From Shigella phage SFPH2: 40,387 bases of DNA. The position numbers and the translations under genes were made by a program. Shown piece by piece: positions 1 to 40,387 of the stretch; position 1 is the stretch's first letter, and every line of letters begins with the position of its first letter. The notes beneath the pieces were generated by a model. It was not told where the DNA came from. It made no database searches and saw nothing but the letters and a program-made list of their open reading frames with translations. The stretch lies in sequence record MH464253. One strand, given 5' to 3'.

Positions 1-909
1 GCGACCTTTAGCCCAGTACCCACCACCAACCACCCCGGTCCACGGCTTAGGTGGCACGACGCAGGGCTGGTAAACTGGGGCAATTCCTGCCAGAGAGAAA
101 CCACGCTGAGCCATCTTCTTGACCCAGAAGTCAGACAGGTGGACCATCTCAACGTCTGCCGCAGCGTTGCCTGCACCGTAGCGCTTAAGCTCGACCAGTT
201 GTGAGGACTGGATGACCAGCTCAAGCATCTTGATGCCTACGTGAACAGCCTCGGTCGGACTCCAAGTCCCCCACGCGTCAGCCAGTTGTCCCTGCTCAAG
301 CATAGACGCCTCGACTGCCTGCATGTAGGCCTTCTTGTAGCTTGCGCCAGCGCGTTTCTTCAGGTTCTCCGCGATGGTCTTCTTGAAGTGCTCCTGCTCC
401 TGCTCACGGATGCGACCAAAGCGGATTTCATCTTCCAGTGTGCGACCTATCGCGGATGCCATAGGAGTTATCGGAATGCCTTCAGGCTTGACCAGCTTGC
501 TGAGGATGACTTTCAGTATGATGACCGCAGCAGACTCCGCAGAGATTAGCAGAGAGCGGTCTTTGACAGCCTTCTCGTCAGTGCTCATCATGGTAAACGC
601 CACGCTTGGACGTGAGGTCGAGGACTTACCGTCCGGGCCTTCATGCCACTCACGCACAGCCTTAGCGATGGTCGGAACCAGTGTTTGCATCAGAGGTTTA
701 GCGACCTGATTGTCTGCCAGCTCCCCGCGCTCGGTCTGACGCTCAAGGTTCTTAATGAAACGTCGCTCACCTTCAGTGTATGCCTCATGCTCTAGCTGGA
801 GCTGTTTGACTGCGAGGTCTTGCCCGTAGTGGTCAGCCAGTACGTTGAAAGGTTCGATTGCATTCGACACATCAGAGAAGTCGTGTTTGTCAATTGAGAT
901 GACGCTCAT
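1..909 (-). CDS. gp1: DNA-directed RNA polymerase, N-terminal part (gene cut by window boundary; continues at 40387..38615)
   Basis: ATG at 909..907 with AAGGA 9 nt upstream; translation MSVISIDKHDFSD...FGRIREQEQEHFKK...PCVVPPKPWTGVVGGGYWAKGR is colinear with T7 RNAP N-terminus; frame runs off position 1 with a complete codon. Confidence 0.93.
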   Translation of the reverse strand, partial: MSVISIDKHDFSDVSNAIEPFNVLADHYGQDLAVKQLQLEHEAYTEGERRFIKNLERQTERGELADNQVAKPLMQTLVPTIAKAVREWHEGPDGKSSTSRPSVAFTMMSTDEKAVKDRSLLISAESAAVIILKVILSKLVKPEGIPITPMASAIGRTLEDEIRFGRIREQEQEHFKKTIAENLKKRAGASYKKAYMQAVEASMLEQGQLADAWGTWSPTEAVHVGIKMLELVIQSSQLVELKRYGAGNAAADVEMVHLSDFWVKKMAQRGFSLAGIAPVYQPCVVPPKPWTGVVGGGYWAKGR

Positions 910-2515: not shown

Positions 2516-2863
2516 CTAGACCTCCACCGCGATGGTCGTCATCTTGGTTACAGTAAGTCCGCCAGCCAGCTCGACTGCATAGCGTATCGCCTCTTCTTTG
2601 GACTTAAAGTCCTTACCAGCAAGGTGGTATGTGTCCCCTGTTATTACCTTAGATGGACTGCGACTTACCGCAATAGCGTTTTCCATGGCAAGCTCACCAC
2701 GGCTATACTGAGTAAACCAGCGCTTCACCGAACTCGTCCCCACCCCGAACTTTTGGGCTGTTTCCGTCACCCTATCCATAACGCCCTCAGGTAGAGAGGT
2801 GTAGTATTCAACAACGTTGAGTTTAAATGCTAACGAGAATACATTGCGAGTTTTAGCAGTCAT
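2516..2863 (-). CDS. Early protein with putative N-terminal helix-turn-helix (115 aa)
   Basis: ETAQKFGVGTSSVKRWFTQY resembles transposase/sigma-type HTH (A..GVS..T..RW); SD GAAGGAAAG upstream. Confidence 0.6.
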   Translation of the reverse strand: MTAKTRNVFSLAFKLNVVEYYTSLPEGVMDRVTETAQKFGVGTSSVKRWFTQYSRGELAMENAIAVSRSPSKVITGDTYHLAGKDFKSKEEAIRYAVELAGGLTVTKMTTIAVEV

Positions 2864-3264: not shown

Positions 3265-3717
3265 TTACACCACCTCCCAGAACCGACCTTCAGCATCTTT
3301 CGTGAAGCATTCGCCCTTTGGTGCCTCGACTTGCTGGAATGCCCCGTTCAGACGTGTGGTCTTGTAGCCATCCAGACCTTTGCAGAACATCAGGCCAGCC
3401 GTGTGAGTCTGAGACTTGTAGACCATCACGCAGTCTTGCTCAAAGTCATTGCAGGCCAGCCGCGCAACGTTGATAGCCTGAGCTTTGGACTCACAGCGCA
3501 CACGATATGTTCTCTCCTCAGTGGCGACCTCTTGCCCTTCCTCGCGGTAGCATCCTGTAAGCCCAGTGCATTCGAGCACACCGTAGTAGTCTGGCTCAGC
3601 TTGTAGCAGTGCCTTAAGGTCTAACTGACGGCCCATGTTCACTATGTCTGACAGTCCAGCACGAGCGGCTGACACGAGCACATAGAAGACGTTAGCTGGT
3701 TCGTTAGTGTAAATCAT
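3265..3717 (-). CDS. gp0.3: S-adenosyl-L-methionine hydrolase/lyase (T3 gene 0.3-type SAMase, anti-restriction)
   Basis: MIYTNEPANVFYVLVSA...TGCYRE...VRC.SKAQAINVARLACN..EQDCVMVYKSQTHTAGL matches T3 SAMase as recalled, near-identical length (150 aa). Confidence 0.88.
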   Translation of the reverse strand: MIYTNEPANVFYVLVSAARAGLSDIVNMGRQLDLKALLQAEPDYYGVLECTGLTGCYREEGQEVATEERTYRVRCESKAQAINVARLACNDFEQDCVMVYKSQTHTAGLMFCKGLDGYKTTRLNGAFQQVEAPKGECFTKDAEGRFWEVV

Positions 3718-3961: not shown

Positions 3962-4076
3962 CTACTTTCTTTCTGTCGGTTGCCTGTTTTTCGTATGTCT
4001 TACAGGCTGACTACTTAACCGGACCGACCCGGCGTCTTCACTATCCGGTTGTTGCCGTGTCGTGTTGACGGAAGCT

Positions 4077-20956: not shown

Positions 20957-20996
20957 CAAAAAACCCCTCAAGCACCCGAAGGCACCCAAGGGGTTT
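20957..20996 (-). terminator. Intrinsic terminator (Tphi-like) after capsid gene
   Basis: Minus-strand AACCCCTTGGGTGCCTTCGGGTGCTTGAGGGGTTTTTTGC: GC-rich stem with G-U wobbles then U6; close to recalled T7 Tphi. Confidence 0.8.
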
Positions 20997-35211: not shown

Positions 35212-35234
35212 TGTTCCTAAAGTGATAGTTTAGT
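35212..35234 (-). promoter_or_regulatory. Phage RNAP promoter variant (phi2.5 position): ACTAAACTATCACTTTAGGAACA
   Basis: Consensus with one substitution, overlapping gp2 stop, upstream of SSB. Confidence 0.7.
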
Positions 35235-35394
35235 CGTGCAGCTCAGGTCGGATGCGGCCTACCACGAAACCAGCATCTTCATACTCCTGAGACTTTAGGG
35301 TCGCCTCGTCCAGAGACTTGGCGTATACCGGGACCTCAAAGGACTGAACGCGACCCTCAAGCTCCACGATGTACTTCTTTTCTTCAAGGCTCAT
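35230..35394 (-). CDS. gp2: Inhibitor of host RNA polymerase (T7 gp2-like)
   Basis: [34 protein letters not shown] matches T7 gp2 [35 protein letters not shown]; ATG at 35394 preferred over track GTG at 35412. Confidence 0.85.
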
Positions 35395-35472
35395 AGCCCT
35401 CTCCCCTTCCACAGGTTATACATTTCGAGATAGTCTGTGTTACCTGTCCTCTCGAACATCATCTCGCACCAT

Positions 35473-35780
35473 TCACTCGGAGTCATGACTACCAGCCTTA
35501 CTCTGAGCTACCATACGAGCACCGAAGAACTCGACTTTCTCTGCATCGTAAAGACCATCATCTTTAGCGCCAGCTTTACGCAGACCCAAGGTCCGCTGGG
35601 CGGCTCGACGCCATATTGCCTTGAACGCATTGCCTTCCGCGAAGTTCATACCAAGAGCTTCGATGATGTCGTTGCACTCAGCGATGTACTCAGGTCGACC
35701 GGGGGTAGTGGTGCTCTTTATGTGGACCTGATAGTAGTCAGCAGAACCGCCAGTGTAGATAGGCTGTTCATTTTAGTCAT
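35473..35780 (-). pseudogene. Apparent frameshifted gene: SD-ATG (35780) opens a 20-codon frame, while ~100 protein-like codons continue in the adjacent frame to TGA at 35473
   Basis: AAGGAGG 5 nt before ATG ACT AAA ATG...TAA; other frame reads NEQPIYTGGSADYYQVHIK...AIWRRAAQRTLGLRKAG...SHDSE; one extra A in the A4 run (plus 35771-35774) would fuse them. Confidence 0.4.
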
Positions 35781-36033
35781 TGACCACCTCCTTCACAAAC
35801 TCAATGAACAGACGAACGCGAGGCCACTTGGTGTAGACCACAGGTACGCTGGTCTCACGCTTCTGGCGAGCCTCTTCAGCTTTGCCCGGAGTAATCAGAG
35901 CGAAGACTGTAGGTGACAGCTTAATGGCCTTCCCGAAGTAGCCCAGCTTCTCGTTGCGCTTAATGCAAGCGAACGGGTTGTGGGACAGATGGAAGGTATT
36001 GGAATAACGGTTGAACATTAAGTTCTTAAACAT
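35773..36033 (-). CDS. Hypothetical protein (86 aa, gene 1.6 position)
   Basis: ATG with AAGGAGG SD 7 nt upstream. Confidence 0.65.
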   Translation of the reverse strand: MFKNLMFNRYSNTFHLSHNPFACIKRNEKLGYFGKAIKLSPTVFALITPGKAEEARQKRETSVPVVYTKWPRVRLFIEFVKEVVND

Positions 36034-36061: not shown

Positions 36062-36084
36062 TTGTCCTATAGTGATAGCTTAGT
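36062..36084 (-). promoter_or_regulatory. Phage RNAP promoter (phi1.5/1.6 position): CTAAGCTATCACTATAGGACAAC
   Basis: Consensus match after ligase and early terminator. Confidence 0.8.
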
Positions 36085-38614: not shown

Positions 38615-40387
38615 TTAGGCGAATGCAAAGTCAGATAGCAGAATGTCTTCGATGTTCAGTTTACCGCGCTTCGGCAGCTCAGGCAATTTGTCGCGCTGGC
38701 TCTCATGAAGCTGGTCCTCGAACTGCTCGTAGAAGTCTTGCAGAACATCGTTGTCTCGGTAGGTCTCGACCATCGTCTCACGGACTCCCTTGAACAGGAA
38801 CTCAGCGTCTGCCGGGATGGTCCCAAAGCTGTCGTGAATCACCGCGAAGGACATCACGCCATACTTGCGGTGGGTATGGACTACAGTCTTCCTCAGGTGA
38901 CTGCCATCCTGTGAGTGTACAAAGTTAGGGCTGATACCGGACTCCTGCTTGTGCTTGTCCAGCTCTTTCTTCGACCCTTTGTTGACTGTCGGTTGCAGGT
39001 TGAACGACCCAAGGAACAGGAGGTTCAGCCGTGTGGTGTCTTTCTTGCGGTATTCCTGCCAGACCGGGAACCCATCAGGTGTTACCCAGTGTACCGGAAG
39101 GCAAGGCTTCAGGATTTCGCCAGTCTTCTTGTCCTTCACTTCAGCAGCCAGTAGCTTGGCAGCGCCTTGAAGCCACTTCATCGCGTCAACCGCAGCAACT
39201 ACGGTCACACTCACGGCGTCCCATATCATCTTAGCCATGAAGCGAGACGCTTGGCTTGGGTCGGTGAACATTGCGCCTTTACCGCTGTCAATCGCTGGCA
39301 TCACGGTGTCCTCAAACACTTGGTCCGCGAACCCGTATTCTTTCGACCCGTAGGCCAGAGTCATGACCGAGCGTTTAGTGACCGAGCGTGACATCCCGTA
39401 GGTCAGCCACTGTCGAGCCAGCTCACGGGTCCCAAGGACCAGACGCTCAGTAATCTCGCCTGTCTTCTTGTCCTCAAAGGTCTTCATTTCGTTGTCGCTC
39501 CCGTTGACCAGCAGTTCCTTGAGCTGTTCTTCCACCCGGTCGGACACAATGCGGTAGATGTCTTGGACCTTCCCGCTTGGCGTCAGGTTTACCGCATGTC
39601 CACCAACGTGGTCACGGAGCATAGCGCTGAAGTGCTGAATCCCGGAGCAGGACCCATCGAACGCGATAGGCAGTGAGCAGGAGTAACTCAGCCCGTGGTG
39701 CATGACTCCAGCATACTCAAAGCAGAACGCTAGGAAGCAGAACGGAGAGTCTAACCGGCCCCACCAATCAATGCTGTCCATCGGATTCTTTGCTGCTGAG
39801 AGGATGTTGTCGTGGTTGTCTTCGACCCACTTGATGCGCTCCTCAAAGGTGACTTTATCGACACCCGCGCAGTTTGCACCATGTACCTTCAGCCATTTGA
39901 AGCCGTCCGCACCGATTGGTTTACCGACCGCCAGAGTCAGCAGGCCCTTCTGCATATCGTTGCCTTGAGGGTTGAACATCGGGACAGCGTACACTCGGCC
40001 CCGCCAGTCCATGTTGTACGGGAACCAGATGGCCTTAAACTGAGAGAACTTGTTAGCCTGTGAGACGATGAAGCTCAGGGACAAGCGGCGCGACTGTCGG
40101 GCCTTCTCGCGTCGATAGATGCCAGCCGCAGACTTCTTCCAAGCCTTAAGCTCCTCCTCGGTCTCACCCGCATAGTCTTCAGGCTTCAGTGGCTCCATCT
40201 GAGGGATGTCAGCGATAGGCGTGTTATTCAGCTTCTCGACCATGTTCACCACTTCCAGCACCTTCTTGTTTACCTTCCAAGGAGTCTGCTGAATGATGTT
40301 CACTGCCTCTACCACTTCAGGCATGTACACGTCTTCGTAGCGCTGGACCGCAGCCTTAGACCCTAAGCGAATCAGTGGTAGAGGTCT
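38615..40387 (-). CDS. gp1: DNA-directed RNA polymerase, C-terminal part (continuation of 909..1 across the circular junction)
   Basis: Frame open to window edge; ...RYEDVYMPEV, FPYNMDWRGRVYAV.MFNPQGNDM.KGLLTLA, SPFCFLAFCFEYAGV.HHGLSY, GIQHFSAMLRD, SVMTLAYGSKE, HDSFGT, ends DFAFA as T7 RNAP. Confidence 0.97.
   Translation of the reverse strand, partial: RPLPLIRLGSKAAVQRYEDVYMPEVVEAVNIIQQTPWKVNKKVLEVVNMVEKLNNTPIADIPQMEPLKPEDYAGETEEELKAWKKSAAGIYRREKARQSRRLSLSFIVSQANKFSQFKAIWFPYNMDWRGRVYAVPMFNPQGNDMQKGLLTLAVGKPIGADGFKWLKVHGANCAGVDKVTFEERIKWVEDNHDNILSAAKNPMDSIDWWGRLDSPFCFLAFCFEYAGVMHHGLSYSCSLPIAFDGSCSGIQHFSAMLRDHVGGHAVNLTPSGKVQDIYRIVSDRVEEQLKELLVNGSDNEMKTFEDKKTGEITERLVLGTRELARQWLTYGMSRSVTKRSVMTLAYGSKEYGFADQVFEDTVMPAIDSGKGAMFTDPSQASRFMAKMIWDAVSVTVVAAVDAMKWLQGAAKLLAAEVKDKKTGEILKPCLPVHWVTPDGFPVWQEYRKKDTTRLNLLFLGSFNLQPTVNKGSKKELDKHKQESGISPNFVHSQDGSHLRKTVVHTHRKYGVMSFAVIHDSFGTIPADAEFLFKGVRETMVETYRDNDVLQDFYEQFEDQLHESQRDKLPELPKRGKLNIEDILLSDFAFA

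What the first reader, a model, noticed from the sequence alone, without database searches (positions are those of the whole stretch)
35473..35780. Middle gene with start codon and body in different frames (frameshift, pseudogene or sequencing error in an A4 run)
A strong SD (AAGGAGG) precedes ATG at 35780, but that frame stops after 20 codons. The adjacent frame carries about 100 protein-like codons (…TGGSADYYQVHIKSTTTPGRPEYIAECNDIIEALGMNFAEGNAFKAIWRRAAQRTLGLRKAGAKDDGLYDAEKVEFFGARMVAQSKAGSHDSE) with no start until an internal ATG. ATG ACT AAA A(A)TG AAC: one extra A would give a single ~120-aa protein at the T7 gene 1.7 position. It may be a homopolymer assembly error, a genuine inactivation, or a programmed shift.
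Basis: seen in the sequence. Interest (0 to 1): 0.5.

Follow-up and report, generated by a model that had tools for sequence, protein, structure and literature searches.

The report
One-base deletion breaks phage accessory gene
A small, non-essential-type gene of a T7-like phage is split across two reading frames because one A is missing from a run that is AAAAA in every related phage; this is an ordinary homopolymer deletion (a sequencing miscall or a fresh mutation), not a programmed frameshift.

Summary
On the minus strand, SD AAGGAGG (35793-35787) precedes ATG 35780. That frame stops after 20 codons (TAA 35720-35718), and the -1 frame carries 99 protein-like codons (35772-35476, stop 35475-35473).

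All 11 related sequences with this gene (at least 9 distinct) read ATG ACT AAA AAT GAA with A5 and encode an intact 102-aa protein, not ~120 aa. The window has A4 (35774-35771). In the three closest alignments the missing A is the only gap in 1.2-2 kb.

The repaired protein is 100% identical to two orthologs, and differences from relatives are mostly synonymous, so the gene body shows no decay. There is no slippery heptamer, no downstream RNA structure and no conservation of the split, so programmed recoding is rejected.

The other 42 of 43 genes with a counterpart in phage Dev2 are frame-intact, so this is a single isolated indel. Whether it is a consensus miscall or a recent true null allele cannot be decided without reads. 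I lean slightly towards miscall.

The gene sits in the T7 gene 1.7 slot. It belongs to a large unnamed phage domain family whose predicted fold weakly resembles DUF3310/SaV-like/gp1.7 kinase proteins. Ordinary; low interest.

The parts
36062..36084 (-). Phage-RNAP promoter (phi1.6-like) driving the 1.6 / 1.7-slot / 1.8 / 2 gene block
   Evidence: One mismatch to the promoter annotated as phi1.6 in phage Ro45lw, with 0 matches expected by chance. It lies 28 nt upstream of the gene 1.6 start.
35773..36033 (-). Gene 1.6 homolog (86 aa), intact. Its TAA stop (35775-35773) overlaps the start region of the broken gene.
   Evidence: ORF. phrog_1777 at 2.8e-33. 95% identical to Dev2 gp1.6. BLASTP against T7 gp1.6 gives E=1e-11.
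35787..35793 (-). Shine-Dalgarno AAGGAGG, 6 nt upstream of ATG 35780
   Evidence: Sequence. The same SD and ATG are used by the intact annotated CDSs in Ro45lw, SFP21A and SFP21B.
35718..35780 (-). True start of the gene plus the out-of-frame 20-codon remnant (MTKMNSLSTLAVLLTTIRST, then stop). Only MTK is authentic.
   Evidence: Relatives read MTKNEQPIYTGGS... from the same ATG.
35771..35774 (-). A4 run; the ancestral state is A5 (AAA AAT = Lys-Asn). This is the site of the one-base deletion.
   Evidence: Junction alignment: 11 of 11 orthologous sequences have A5. It is the only gap in the blastn alignments to L017 (2058 nt), L001 (1702 nt) and L003 (1185 nt).
35473..35772 (-). Body of the gene: 99 codons plus TGA in the -1 frame, encoding the conserved ~90-aa domain (YTGGSxDYY...AECNDIIEALGMNFAEGNAFKAIWRR...DGLYDAEKVEFFG)
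   Evidence: Translation. phrog_35442 at 1.3e-57. More than 1000 homologs. Invariant columns in alignments A1-A3. 100% amino-acid identity to the BHUENT8 ortholog after repair.
35473..35649 (-). Longest ORF callable in the body as written (58 aa from internal Met45). It is probably not expressed and lacks half the domain.
   Evidence: The upstream sequence CATCGAAGCTCTTGGT has no SD. The missing residues 1-44 include invariant Y16, Y17, Y32, E35, C36, D38 and I40.
35391..35486 (-). Gene 1.8 homolog (31 aa), overlapping the last 14 nt of the body
   Evidence: phrog_1312 at 1.2e-12. BLASTP against T7 gp1.8 gives E=1e-10.
35230..35394 (-). Gene 2 (host RNA polymerase inhibitor, 54 aa from ATG 35394), intact
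   Evidence: Pfam PF16857 at 1.7e-20. Dev2 gp2 residues 1-54 map to 35394..35233 at 94% identity.

Best explanation
The gene in the T7 gene-1.7 slot of this Kayfunavirus-type (T7-like) phage genome has lost one A from an ancestral A5 run spanning codons 3-4 (AAA AAT became AAA AT). This is a plain, non-programmed one-base deletion.

As the sequence is written, ribosomes that load on the strong SD and start at ATG 35780 read MTK, enter the wrong frame and terminate after 20 codons. The conserved ~90-aa domain is not made, so the allele is null.

Shown: the deletion relative to every relative; the intact and perfectly conserved body; the absence of recoding signals; and the frame integrity of the rest of the genome.

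Inferred: the origin of the deletion. The body carries no further damage (100% amino-acid identity to two orthologs, and only synonymous differences from them). The event is therefore either not biological at all (a homopolymer miscall in the consensus) or extremely recent (a fresh null mutation in a dispensable accessory gene). I lean about 55:45 towards a consensus miscall. A neutral or deleterious null allele young enough to show no decay should be rare unless its loss was selected.

The intact protein is a stand-alone copy of a widespread, unnamed phage domain. In other phages this domain is fused behind the same N-terminal modules that precede the DUF3310 kinase domain in T7 gp1.7. Its predicted fold weakly resembles DUF3310/SaV-like proteins, so its most likely role is gp1.7-like: an accessory function in nucleotide metabolism that is non-essential in the laboratory. 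That role is inferred and not shown.
For: - A5 versus A4: 6 GenBank records, 3 IMG/VR contigs, 1 metagenome contig and 1 Logan contig all read ATGA(C/T)TAAAAATGAACAGCC and encode 102 aa. The gene is annotated as an intact CDS in Ro45lw, SFP21A and SFP21B.
- A pattern scan allowing A3-A6 found no A4 copy in IMG/VR, JGI metagenomes or GTDB genomes.
- The missing A is the sole gap in 1.2-2 kb alignments to the three closest relatives.
- The repaired protein is 100% identical to L005 and L010, with 5 nucleotide differences, all synonymous. Across the 11 orthologs, 95 codons differ synonymously and 22 non-synonymously.
- The family is large and strongly conserved.
- There is no X_XXY_YYZ heptamer in the overlap, the downstream fold has z=-0.9 and Rfam finds nothing.
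- The rest of the genome is clean. Of the 43 Dev2 CDSs that find a counterpart in the window by tblastn, all are frame-consistent: 40 map as a single HSP over essentially their full length, gp1 is split only by the circular permutation, gp0.2 is mosaic, and gp0.38 matches only over its C-terminal half at 56% identity. A G6 run inside the DNA polymerase gene is intact.
- The ancestral A5 would be one of only about three A/T runs of 5 or more in the 40-kb genome, so it is a natural slippage or miscall site.
- Synteny with T7 1.6, 1.8, 2 and 2.5. T7 gene 1.7 is non-essential (PMC7697293).
Against: - No reads are available, so 'deletion' is inferred only from comparison with relatives, and the split between artefact and mutation is a judgement.
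- A very low level of spontaneous -1 slippage of tRNA-Lys on U-AAA-A (2 of 3 positions re-pair) cannot be excluded and could yield traces of full-length protein.
- The functional assignment is weak. The family has no Pfam, NCBIfam or PADLOC hit. BLASTP and hhalign against T7 gp1.7/DUF3310 are not significant. The fold hits to DUF3310/SaV-like proteins are marginal, with E=0.02-0.1.
Confidence: 0.92

Rival explanations
1. Origin sub-hypothesis A (inside the best explanation). The phage really has A5, and the A4 is a homopolymer under-call in the consensus or assembly, for example from Nanopore, Ion Torrent or 454 data or a low-coverage spot. The gene is intact in the real phage.
For: The gene body is undamaged and, after repair, identical in protein to orthologs. 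The site is a homopolymer and the change is a 1-nt deletion, which is the typical direction of such errors. A null allele young enough to show no decay should be rare. Error-laden records exist in this clade: ESh23 is flagged UNVERIFIED and carries many 'nonfunctional due to mutation' features. The window looks like an unrotated circular assembly cut inside gene 1.
Against: No other coding homopolymer is wrong, including a G6 in the DNA polymerase gene and several C5 runs. A5 is short for a systematic miscall, and on Illumina data such an error would be very unlikely. The sequencing platform is unknown.
Confidence: 0.5
2. Origin sub-hypothesis B (inside the best explanation). The A4 is real: a recent replication-slippage deletion has knocked out a dispensable accessory gene. 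It was either carried along by a plaque-purification bottleneck or selected because losing the protein helps on the isolation host.
For: The assembly is otherwise clean. The equivalent T7 gene 1.7 is non-essential and can be replaced (PMC7697293). The slot is evolutionarily plastic, with at least four different alleles among close relatives. Loss-of-function mutations in SaV, a DUF3310 protein, let lactococcal phages escape AbiV (PMC13064643).
Against: No second sequence with A4 was found in any collection. The body shows no decay at all, which requires the event to be very recent. Without selection, fixation of such a mutation is a priori rare.
Confidence: 0.42
3. Programmed recoding. A -1 ribosomal frameshift at ACU AAA AUG, or RNA-polymerase slippage that adds an A in the A4 run, regularly produces the full 102-aa protein from the sequence as written.
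For: The two frames overlap exactly where a -1 shift, or one extra A in the mRNA, would rebuild the conserved N-terminus MTKNEQ. tRNA-Lys on AAA can re-pair at 2 of 3 positions in the -1 frame.
Against: There is no X_XXY_YYZ heptamer anywhere in the 20-codon overlap. The downstream RNA structure is not significant (z=-0.9). Rfam finds no recoding element. Eleven of 11 relatives encode the protein in one frame with A5, so the arrangement is not conserved. From my own knowledge, not tested here: an A4 run is far shorter than the runs on which transcriptional slippage is known to occur, about 8 or more.
Confidence: 0.03
4. The body is expressed another way: by read-through of the gene 1.6 TAA stop (35775-35773), giving an ~186-aa gp1.6-domain fusion because both are now in one frame, or by initiation at the internal ATG 35649, giving a 58-aa fragment.
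For: Gene 1.6 and the body share a frame and are separated by one stop codon. An ATG-initiated 58-aa ORF exists.
Against: The shared frame is simply a by-product of the deletion; in relatives the two genes are in different frames and overlap by 8 nt. No relative has a fusion. There is no SD before ATG 35649. The 58-aa fragment lacks the N-terminal half of the domain, including 7 invariant residues. From my own knowledge: UAA is the most efficient stop codon in enterobacteria.
Confidence: 0.02

Closest known systems
Intact orthologs annotated as hypothetical proteins: Ro45lw_12 (AZS13000.1), SFP21A_028 (WBF69770.1), SFP21B_029 (WBF69724.1), and the unannotated copies in Enterobacter phage BHUENT8 and Shigella phage ESh23
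   Same: They share the same SD, the same ATG and the same 8-nt overlap with gene 1.6. Protein identity after repair is 94-100%, and the neighbours are the same (1.6, 1.8, 2, 2.5).
   Different: They have A5 and a single 309-nt ORF. The window has A4, which splits the gene.
T7 gene 1.7 nucleotide kinase (NP_041967.1; Pfam DUF3310, PF11753) and its Kayfunavirus ortholog Dev2 gp1.7
   Same: The genomic slot is identical, between genes 1.6 and 1.8/2. Dev2 gp1.7 even starts MTKHEQ from the same ATG. Longer members of the window's family carry N-terminal modules homologous to T7 gp1.7 residues 14-37 and 49-99, at E=4e-6 and 2e-10. With the pLDDT-84 model, the best fold hits outside the family itself are mostly 'SaV-like', 'DUF3310' or 'nucleotide kinase' proteins, with probability at least 0.9 and TM about 0.45-0.58. 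Both proteins share a (F/Y)xxGNxxKxxxR motif.
   Different: There is no significant sequence similarity: BLASTP gives E=2.4 and 0.07, hhalign gives probability 0.2%, and none of 58 family members hits Pfam DUF3310. The window's version lacks the Cys-rich N-terminal region. Kinase activity has never been tested for this family.
SaV of lactococcal phage p2 (DUF3310), the phage protein sensed by the AbiV abortive-infection system
   Same: Both are small early or middle phage proteins. 'SaV-like' models appear among the sub-threshold fold hits. Loss-of-function mutations in SaV are a known, selected phenotype (PMC13064643).
   Different: The link is only at marginal fold level, the host and phage group differ, and no defence system is known to sense this protein. 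PADLOC finds nothing.
Genuine programmed frameshift sites (for example T7 gene 10A/10B -1 frameshift, or dnaX A AAA AAG)
   Same: One gene is spread over two overlapping frames near an A-run.
   Different: Here there is no slippery heptamer, no stimulatory structure and no conservation, and all relatives use a single frame.

Membership tests
Ro45lw_12-like / phrog_35442 C-terminal domain family (unnamed ~90-aa phage domain) | Full-length, high-scoring match to the family profile and homologs | tested here: met
   phrog_35442 at 1.3e-57 over residues 5-98. 1075 homologs at E<=1e-3 and 1087 representatives. The best hit is 99% identical and 102 aa long.
Ro45lw_12-like / phrog_35442 C-terminal domain family (unnamed ~90-aa phage domain) | Invariant residues present (Y16, Y17, Y32, E35, C36, D38, I40, E49, A55, W57, R58, K69, D79, K82) | tested here: met
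   The invariant columns come from alignments A2 and A3. The window's body translation contains all of them.
Ro45lw_12-like / phrog_35442 C-terminal domain family (unnamed ~90-aa phage domain) | Encoded as one uninterrupted ORF from the SD-linked ATG | tested here: not met
   The window has A4 in place of A5, and the start frame stops after 20 codons. As written, it is a frameshifted allele of a family member.
T7 gp1.7 nucleotide kinase / Pfam DUF3310 (PF11753) | Match to the Pfam DUF3310 model at or above the gathering score | tested here: not met
   The repaired protein and 58 diverse family members give no hit. T7 gp1.7 and Dev2 gp1.7 hit at 4.5e-23 and 1.3e-21.
T7 gp1.7 nucleotide kinase / Pfam DUF3310 (PF11753) | Profile-profile or pairwise sequence homology to the gp1.7 C-terminal domain | tested here: not met
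   hhalign gives probability 0.2% and aligns only a 12-residue motif; both profiles are shallow, with Neff about 2. BLASTP gives E=2.4.
T7 gp1.7 nucleotide kinase / Pfam DUF3310 (PF11753) | Same fold | tested here: inconclusive
   The AF2 model has pLDDT 84. In the Foldseek BFVD search, about a dozen of the hits ranked 19-50 are named SaV-like, DUF3310 or nucleotide kinase, with E=0.02-0.1, probability 0.9-1.0 and TM 0.42-0.58. No solved structure exists for either family.
T7 gp1.7 nucleotide kinase / Pfam DUF3310 (PF11753) | Genomic position between genes 1.6 and 1.8/2 of a T7-like phage | tested here: met
T7 gp1.7 nucleotide kinase / Pfam DUF3310 (PF11753) | dTMP/dGMP kinase activity | not testable with these tools
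   This needs a biochemical assay. The activity is cited for T7 gp1.7 in PMC7693777.
Programmed -1 ribosomal frameshift site | Slippery heptamer X XXY YYZ in the zero frame within the overlap of the two frames | tested here: not met
   None is found in 35780-35718. The best single-codon re-pairing is AAA to UAA, at 2 of 3 positions.
Programmed -1 ribosomal frameshift site | Downstream stimulatory RNA structure | tested here: not met
   MFE -21.1 kcal/mol against a shuffle mean of -18.4, z=-0.90, with 37 of 200 shuffles folding as well. Rfam finds no recoding element.
Programmed -1 ribosomal frameshift site | The two-frame arrangement is conserved in relatives | tested here: not met
   0 of 11 orthologous sequences show the split; all have A5 and one frame.
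Transcriptional (RNA polymerase) slippage site | Long homopolymeric A/T run (about 8 or more; from my own knowledge) | tested here: not met
   The run is only 4 A long.

The most novel reading that the evidence does not exclude
The A4 allele is real and was selected. Losing this SaV-like/gp1.7-like protein lets the phage escape a host abortive-infection or other defence system that senses it, in the way sav mutants escape AbiV in Lactococcus. That would make this unnamed ~90-aa domain family a defence trigger in enterobacterial T7-like phages.
Probability: 0.05. Interest if true: 0.45.

Novelty: already known. Interest (0 to 1): 0.1.

Why it matters
This matters mainly for annotation quality. 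The locus should be annotated as one gene with a frameshift, either corrected after checking the reads or flagged as a pseudogene. It should not be annotated as a 20-aa ORF plus a 58-aa ORF, and it should not be reported as a recoding event.

There is a minor side value. The intact gene belongs to a large phage domain family (over 1000 representatives at 50% identity) that has no Pfam or NCBIfam model. The family is often labelled '3'-phosphatase, 5'-polynucleotide kinase' with no support that I could find. It alternates with the DUF3310 kinase domain in the gene-1.7 slot behind shared N-terminal modules. That makes it a reasonable candidate for a divergent gp1.7-type domain worth a biochemical test.

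Tried and rejected
- Programmed -1 frameshift: a heptamer scan, the downstream RNA fold and Rfam were all negative, and no relative conserves the split.
- Read-through fusion of gp1.6 with the body: the shared frame is a by-product of the deletion.
- Internal start at ATG 35649: no SD, and half the domain would be lost.
- Search for an independent A4 allele: pattern scans of IMG/VR, JGI metagenomes and GTDB genomes allowing A3-A6 returned only A5 copies or nothing.
- Exact-protein look-ups of the window's 58-aa ORF, gp1.6, ligase and SSB found nothing on record, so no sister assembly of this phage is available.
- Looking for other homopolymer errors to diagnose a bad assembly: none in coding sequence. 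The apparent second broken gene (Dev2 gp0.2 matching in two pieces) is mosaicism across two intact ORFs.
- Sequence-level link to T7 gp1.7/DUF3310: BLASTP, Pfam and hhalign were all negative.
- NCBIfam and PADLOC gave no hit, and the PDB gave none by sequence or by fold.
- The first AF2 model (pLDDT 71) was too poor for fold inference and was replaced by a deeper-alignment model.
- Tran et al. 2012 (PMC3436134) on the gp1.7 enzyme could not be read because it is not held.

Full report
**What the window is.** tblastn of the 44 annotated proteins of Cronobacter phage Dev2 against the window shows a complete T7-like genome of the genus Kayfunavirus. All genes lie on the minus strand, and the genome is circularly permuted, so the RNA polymerase gene runs across the ends (40387..38618 and 909..1). 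The finding lies in the class II region. The order on the minus strand is:
- DNA ligase (37276-36236);
- a phage promoter with one mismatch to the annotated phi1.6 promoter of Ro45lw (36084-36062);
- a gene 1.6 homolog (36033-35773; E=1e-11 against T7 gp1.6);
- the gene in question;
- a gene 1.8 homolog (35486-35391; E=1e-10);
- gene 2, the host-RNAP inhibitor (35394-35230; Pfam PF16857);
- gene 2.5, the SSB (35182-34484).

So the gene does occupy the T7 gene 1.7 slot (T7 map).

**Checking the observation.** The sequence reads GTGAAGGAGGTGGTCAATGACTAAAATGAACAGCC. SD AAGGAGG is at 35793-35787 and ATG at 35780. The frame ATG ACT AAA ATG AAC ... ends at TAA 35720-35718 after 20 codons. The -1 frame is open from AAT (35772-35770) to the TGA at 35475-35473. 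That is 99 codons, with no ATG/GTG/TTG before ATG 35649. One addition: the body shares its frame with gene 1.6 and is separated from it only by that gene's TAA stop.

**What relatives show.** A megablast of the region finds 220 phage records. Six GenBank records carry the same gene: ESh23, Ro45lw, SFP21A, BHUENT8, SFP21B and a mislabelled 'IME_EF3' fragment. So do three IMG/VR contigs, one metagenome contig and one Logan contig. All of them read ATGA(C/T)TAAAAATGAACAGCC, that is ATG ACT AAA AAT GAA CAG with A5, and encode one 102-aa protein from the same SD and ATG.
- One IMG/VR contig is probably Ro45lw itself, and the IME_EF3 fragment is nearly the same as BHUENT8, so at least nine of the eleven are distinct.
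- The gene is annotated as an intact 309-nt CDS overlapping gene 1.6 by 8 nt in Ro45lw, SFP21A and SFP21B.
- A pattern scan that allowed A3 to A6 found no A4 copy in IMG/VR, JGI metagenomes or GTDB genomes.
- In blastn alignments to the three closest relatives, the missing A is the only gap in 2058, 1702 and 1185 aligned bases.

The window therefore carries a one-base deletion in an A5 run. Adding one A restores a 102-aa protein, not ~120 aa.

**State of the gene body.** After repair the protein is 100% identical to the BHUENT8 and IME_EF3-fragment orthologs, with 5 nucleotide differences, all synonymous. Across the 11 orthologs, 95 codons differ synonymously and 22 non-synonymously. All 14 invariant residues of the wider family are present. 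The body shows no sign of decay, so the frameshift is either very recent or not biological.

**Is it programmed?** No.
- There is no X XXY YYZ heptamer anywhere in the 20-codon stretch where both frames are open. The best single-codon re-pairing is AAA to UAA, at 2 of 3 positions.
- The 93 nt downstream fold no better than shuffles (z=-0.9).
- Rfam finds no element.
- The split is present in 0 of 11 relatives.
- A run of four A is far too short for RNA-polymerase slippage (my own knowledge).
- Read-through of the gene 1.6 TAA, or initiation at ATG 35649, are formally possible but unsupported. There is no SD at the internal ATG, the 58-aa product would lack half the domain, and the shared frame is simply a consequence of the deletion.

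**Error or mutation?** This cannot be settled without reads.

In favour of a clean assembly, and therefore a real mutation:
- Of the 43 Dev2 CDSs with a counterpart in the window, all are frame-consistent. Forty map as a single HSP over essentially their full length, gp1 is split only by the circular permutation, gp0.2 is mosaic across two intact ORFs, and gp0.38 matches only over its C-terminal half.
- A G6 run inside the DNA polymerase gene is intact, and no other coding homopolymer differs.
- T7 gene 1.7 is dispensable (PMC7697293).

In favour of a miscall:
- The site is a homopolymer, and the ancestral A5 would be one of only about three A/T runs of 5 or more in the genome.
- The change is a one-base under-call.
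- The body is pristine.
- No second A4 sequence exists anywhere.
- An unselected null allele that young should be rare.

I put it at roughly 55:45 for miscall against genuine recent mutation. Exact-protein look-ups for the window's neighbouring genes found nothing, so no sister assembly can arbitrate.

**What the gene is.** The repaired protein has no Pfam, NCBIfam or PADLOC match. It does match the C-terminal halves of phrog_35442 (1.3e-57), phrog_4521 and phrog_7063. It has over 1000 homologs and 1087 representatives at 50% identity. The conserved unit is a ~90-aa domain, YTGGSxDYY...AECNDIIEALGMNFAEGNAFKAIWRR...DGLYDAEKVEFFG, found alone or behind variable N-terminal extensions.

Close relatives fill the same slot with at least four alleles:
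- the domain alone (102 aa);
- a CxxC extension plus the domain (125 aa; Pisces, GW1);
- 163-168-aa versions (ST20, VIPECLMC06);
- a DUF3310 'nucleotide kinase' (Dev2 gp1.7, 116 aa), which starts MTKHEQ from the same ATG.

T7 gp1.7 and Dev2 gp1.7 are DUF3310 proteins. The window's family shows no significant sequence similarity to them: BLASTP gives E=2.4 and 0.07, and hhalign gives probability 0.2%. Two lines of evidence still link the families.
- Long members of the window's family carry N-terminal modules homologous to T7 gp1.7 residues 14-37 and 49-99, at E=4e-6 and 2e-10.
- With a pLDDT-84 AlphaFold model, the Foldseek hits beyond the family itself are mostly 'SaV-like', 'DUF3310' or 'nucleotide kinase' proteins, with E=0.02-0.1, probability at least 0.9 and TM about 0.5.

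No solved structure exists for either family. The most likely reading is a divergent, stand-alone gp1.7-type domain with an accessory role in nucleotide metabolism. This is an inference, and membership of DUF3310 is not established.

**Verdict.** The mechanism is an ordinary one-base homopolymer deletion that, as written, kills a small accessory gene. It is not recoding. The practical action is to check the reads and then either correct the base or annotate a pseudogene. Interest is low. The only mildly novel reading left open is selected loss of a SaV-like protein to escape a host defence (precedent: AbiV/SaV, PMC13064643), which I rate at about 5%.

Noticed in passing
window 1-909 and 38618-40387 (minus strand): The window is a whole phage genome in circularly permuted, reverse orientation. 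The gene 1 RNA polymerase is cut by the ends: residues 304-893 lie at 40387..38618 and residues 1-303 at 909..1, abutting exactly. This suggests an unrotated circular assembly with the terminal repeat collapsed.
   Followed up: partly
window 35473-35780; loci L004, L006, L008, L009, L014: The gene-1.7 slot is a cassette-swapping hot spot in Kayfunaviruses. At least four alleles use the same SD and ATG: 102-aa domain-only, 125-aa CxxC plus domain, 163-168-aa, and a 116-aa DUF3310 'nucleotide kinase' starting MTKHEQ.
   Followed up: partly
repaired protein from window 35473-35780; alignments A1-A3: The ~90-aa domain family is large (1087 representatives at 50% identity) but has no Pfam or NCBIfam model. 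Database names such as '3'-phosphatase, 5'-polynucleotide kinase', or 'host RNA polymerase inhibitor' (SFP20), look like propagated or misplaced annotations. The predicted fold is a beta-hairpin plus three helices with weak DUF3310/SaV-like similarity.
   Followed up: partly
whole window; A6 at 20958-20963, T5 at 3987-3991: The genome is strikingly poor in A/T homopolymers. It has only one A-run of 5 or more and one T5 in 40 kb, against 6 C5, 2 G5 and 1 G6.
   Followed up: no
window 2516-2863 and 3265-3717 (minus strand): The early region is mosaic relative to Dev2. The C-terminal part of Dev2 'gp0.2' (aa 46-105) matches a 115-aa ORF at 98%, and its N-terminal part (aa 1-78) matches a 150-aa ORF at 56%. 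Both window ORFs are intact, so this reflects recombination and not a frameshift.
   Followed up: partly
locus L010 (PQ520215.1, 'Enterococcus phage IME_EF3', UNVERIFIED partial): A 2.5-kb record labelled as an Enterococcus phage carries Kayfunavirus ligase-1.6-1.7 sequence that is 90% identical to the window and nearly identical to Enterobacter phage BHUENT8 at the gene-1.7 locus (same junction sequence and the same 5 synonymous differences from the window). This is probably contamination or mislabelling.
   Followed up: no
locus L001 (ON528733.1, Shigella phage ESh23): ESh23 is the closest relative in this region. It is an UNVERIFIED record with many 'nonfunctional ... due to mutation' features, and it carries a DNA-polymerase misc_feature laid over the ligase-to-gene-2 region on the wrong strand. 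The record is error-laden, yet its gene-1.7-slot gene has the intact A5.
   Followed up: no
window ~4589 (non-coding region between gene 19.5 and the early region): This is the only other homopolymer-length difference from Dev2: C4 in the window against C5 in Dev2. It lies in non-coding sequence, so it says nothing about assembly quality.
   Followed up: no
window 35391-35486 (minus strand): The gene 1.8 homolog starts 14 nt before the end of the broken gene's body. If its translation is coupled to the upstream gene, the frameshift could also lower gp1.8 expression. This is an untested inference.
   Followed up: no
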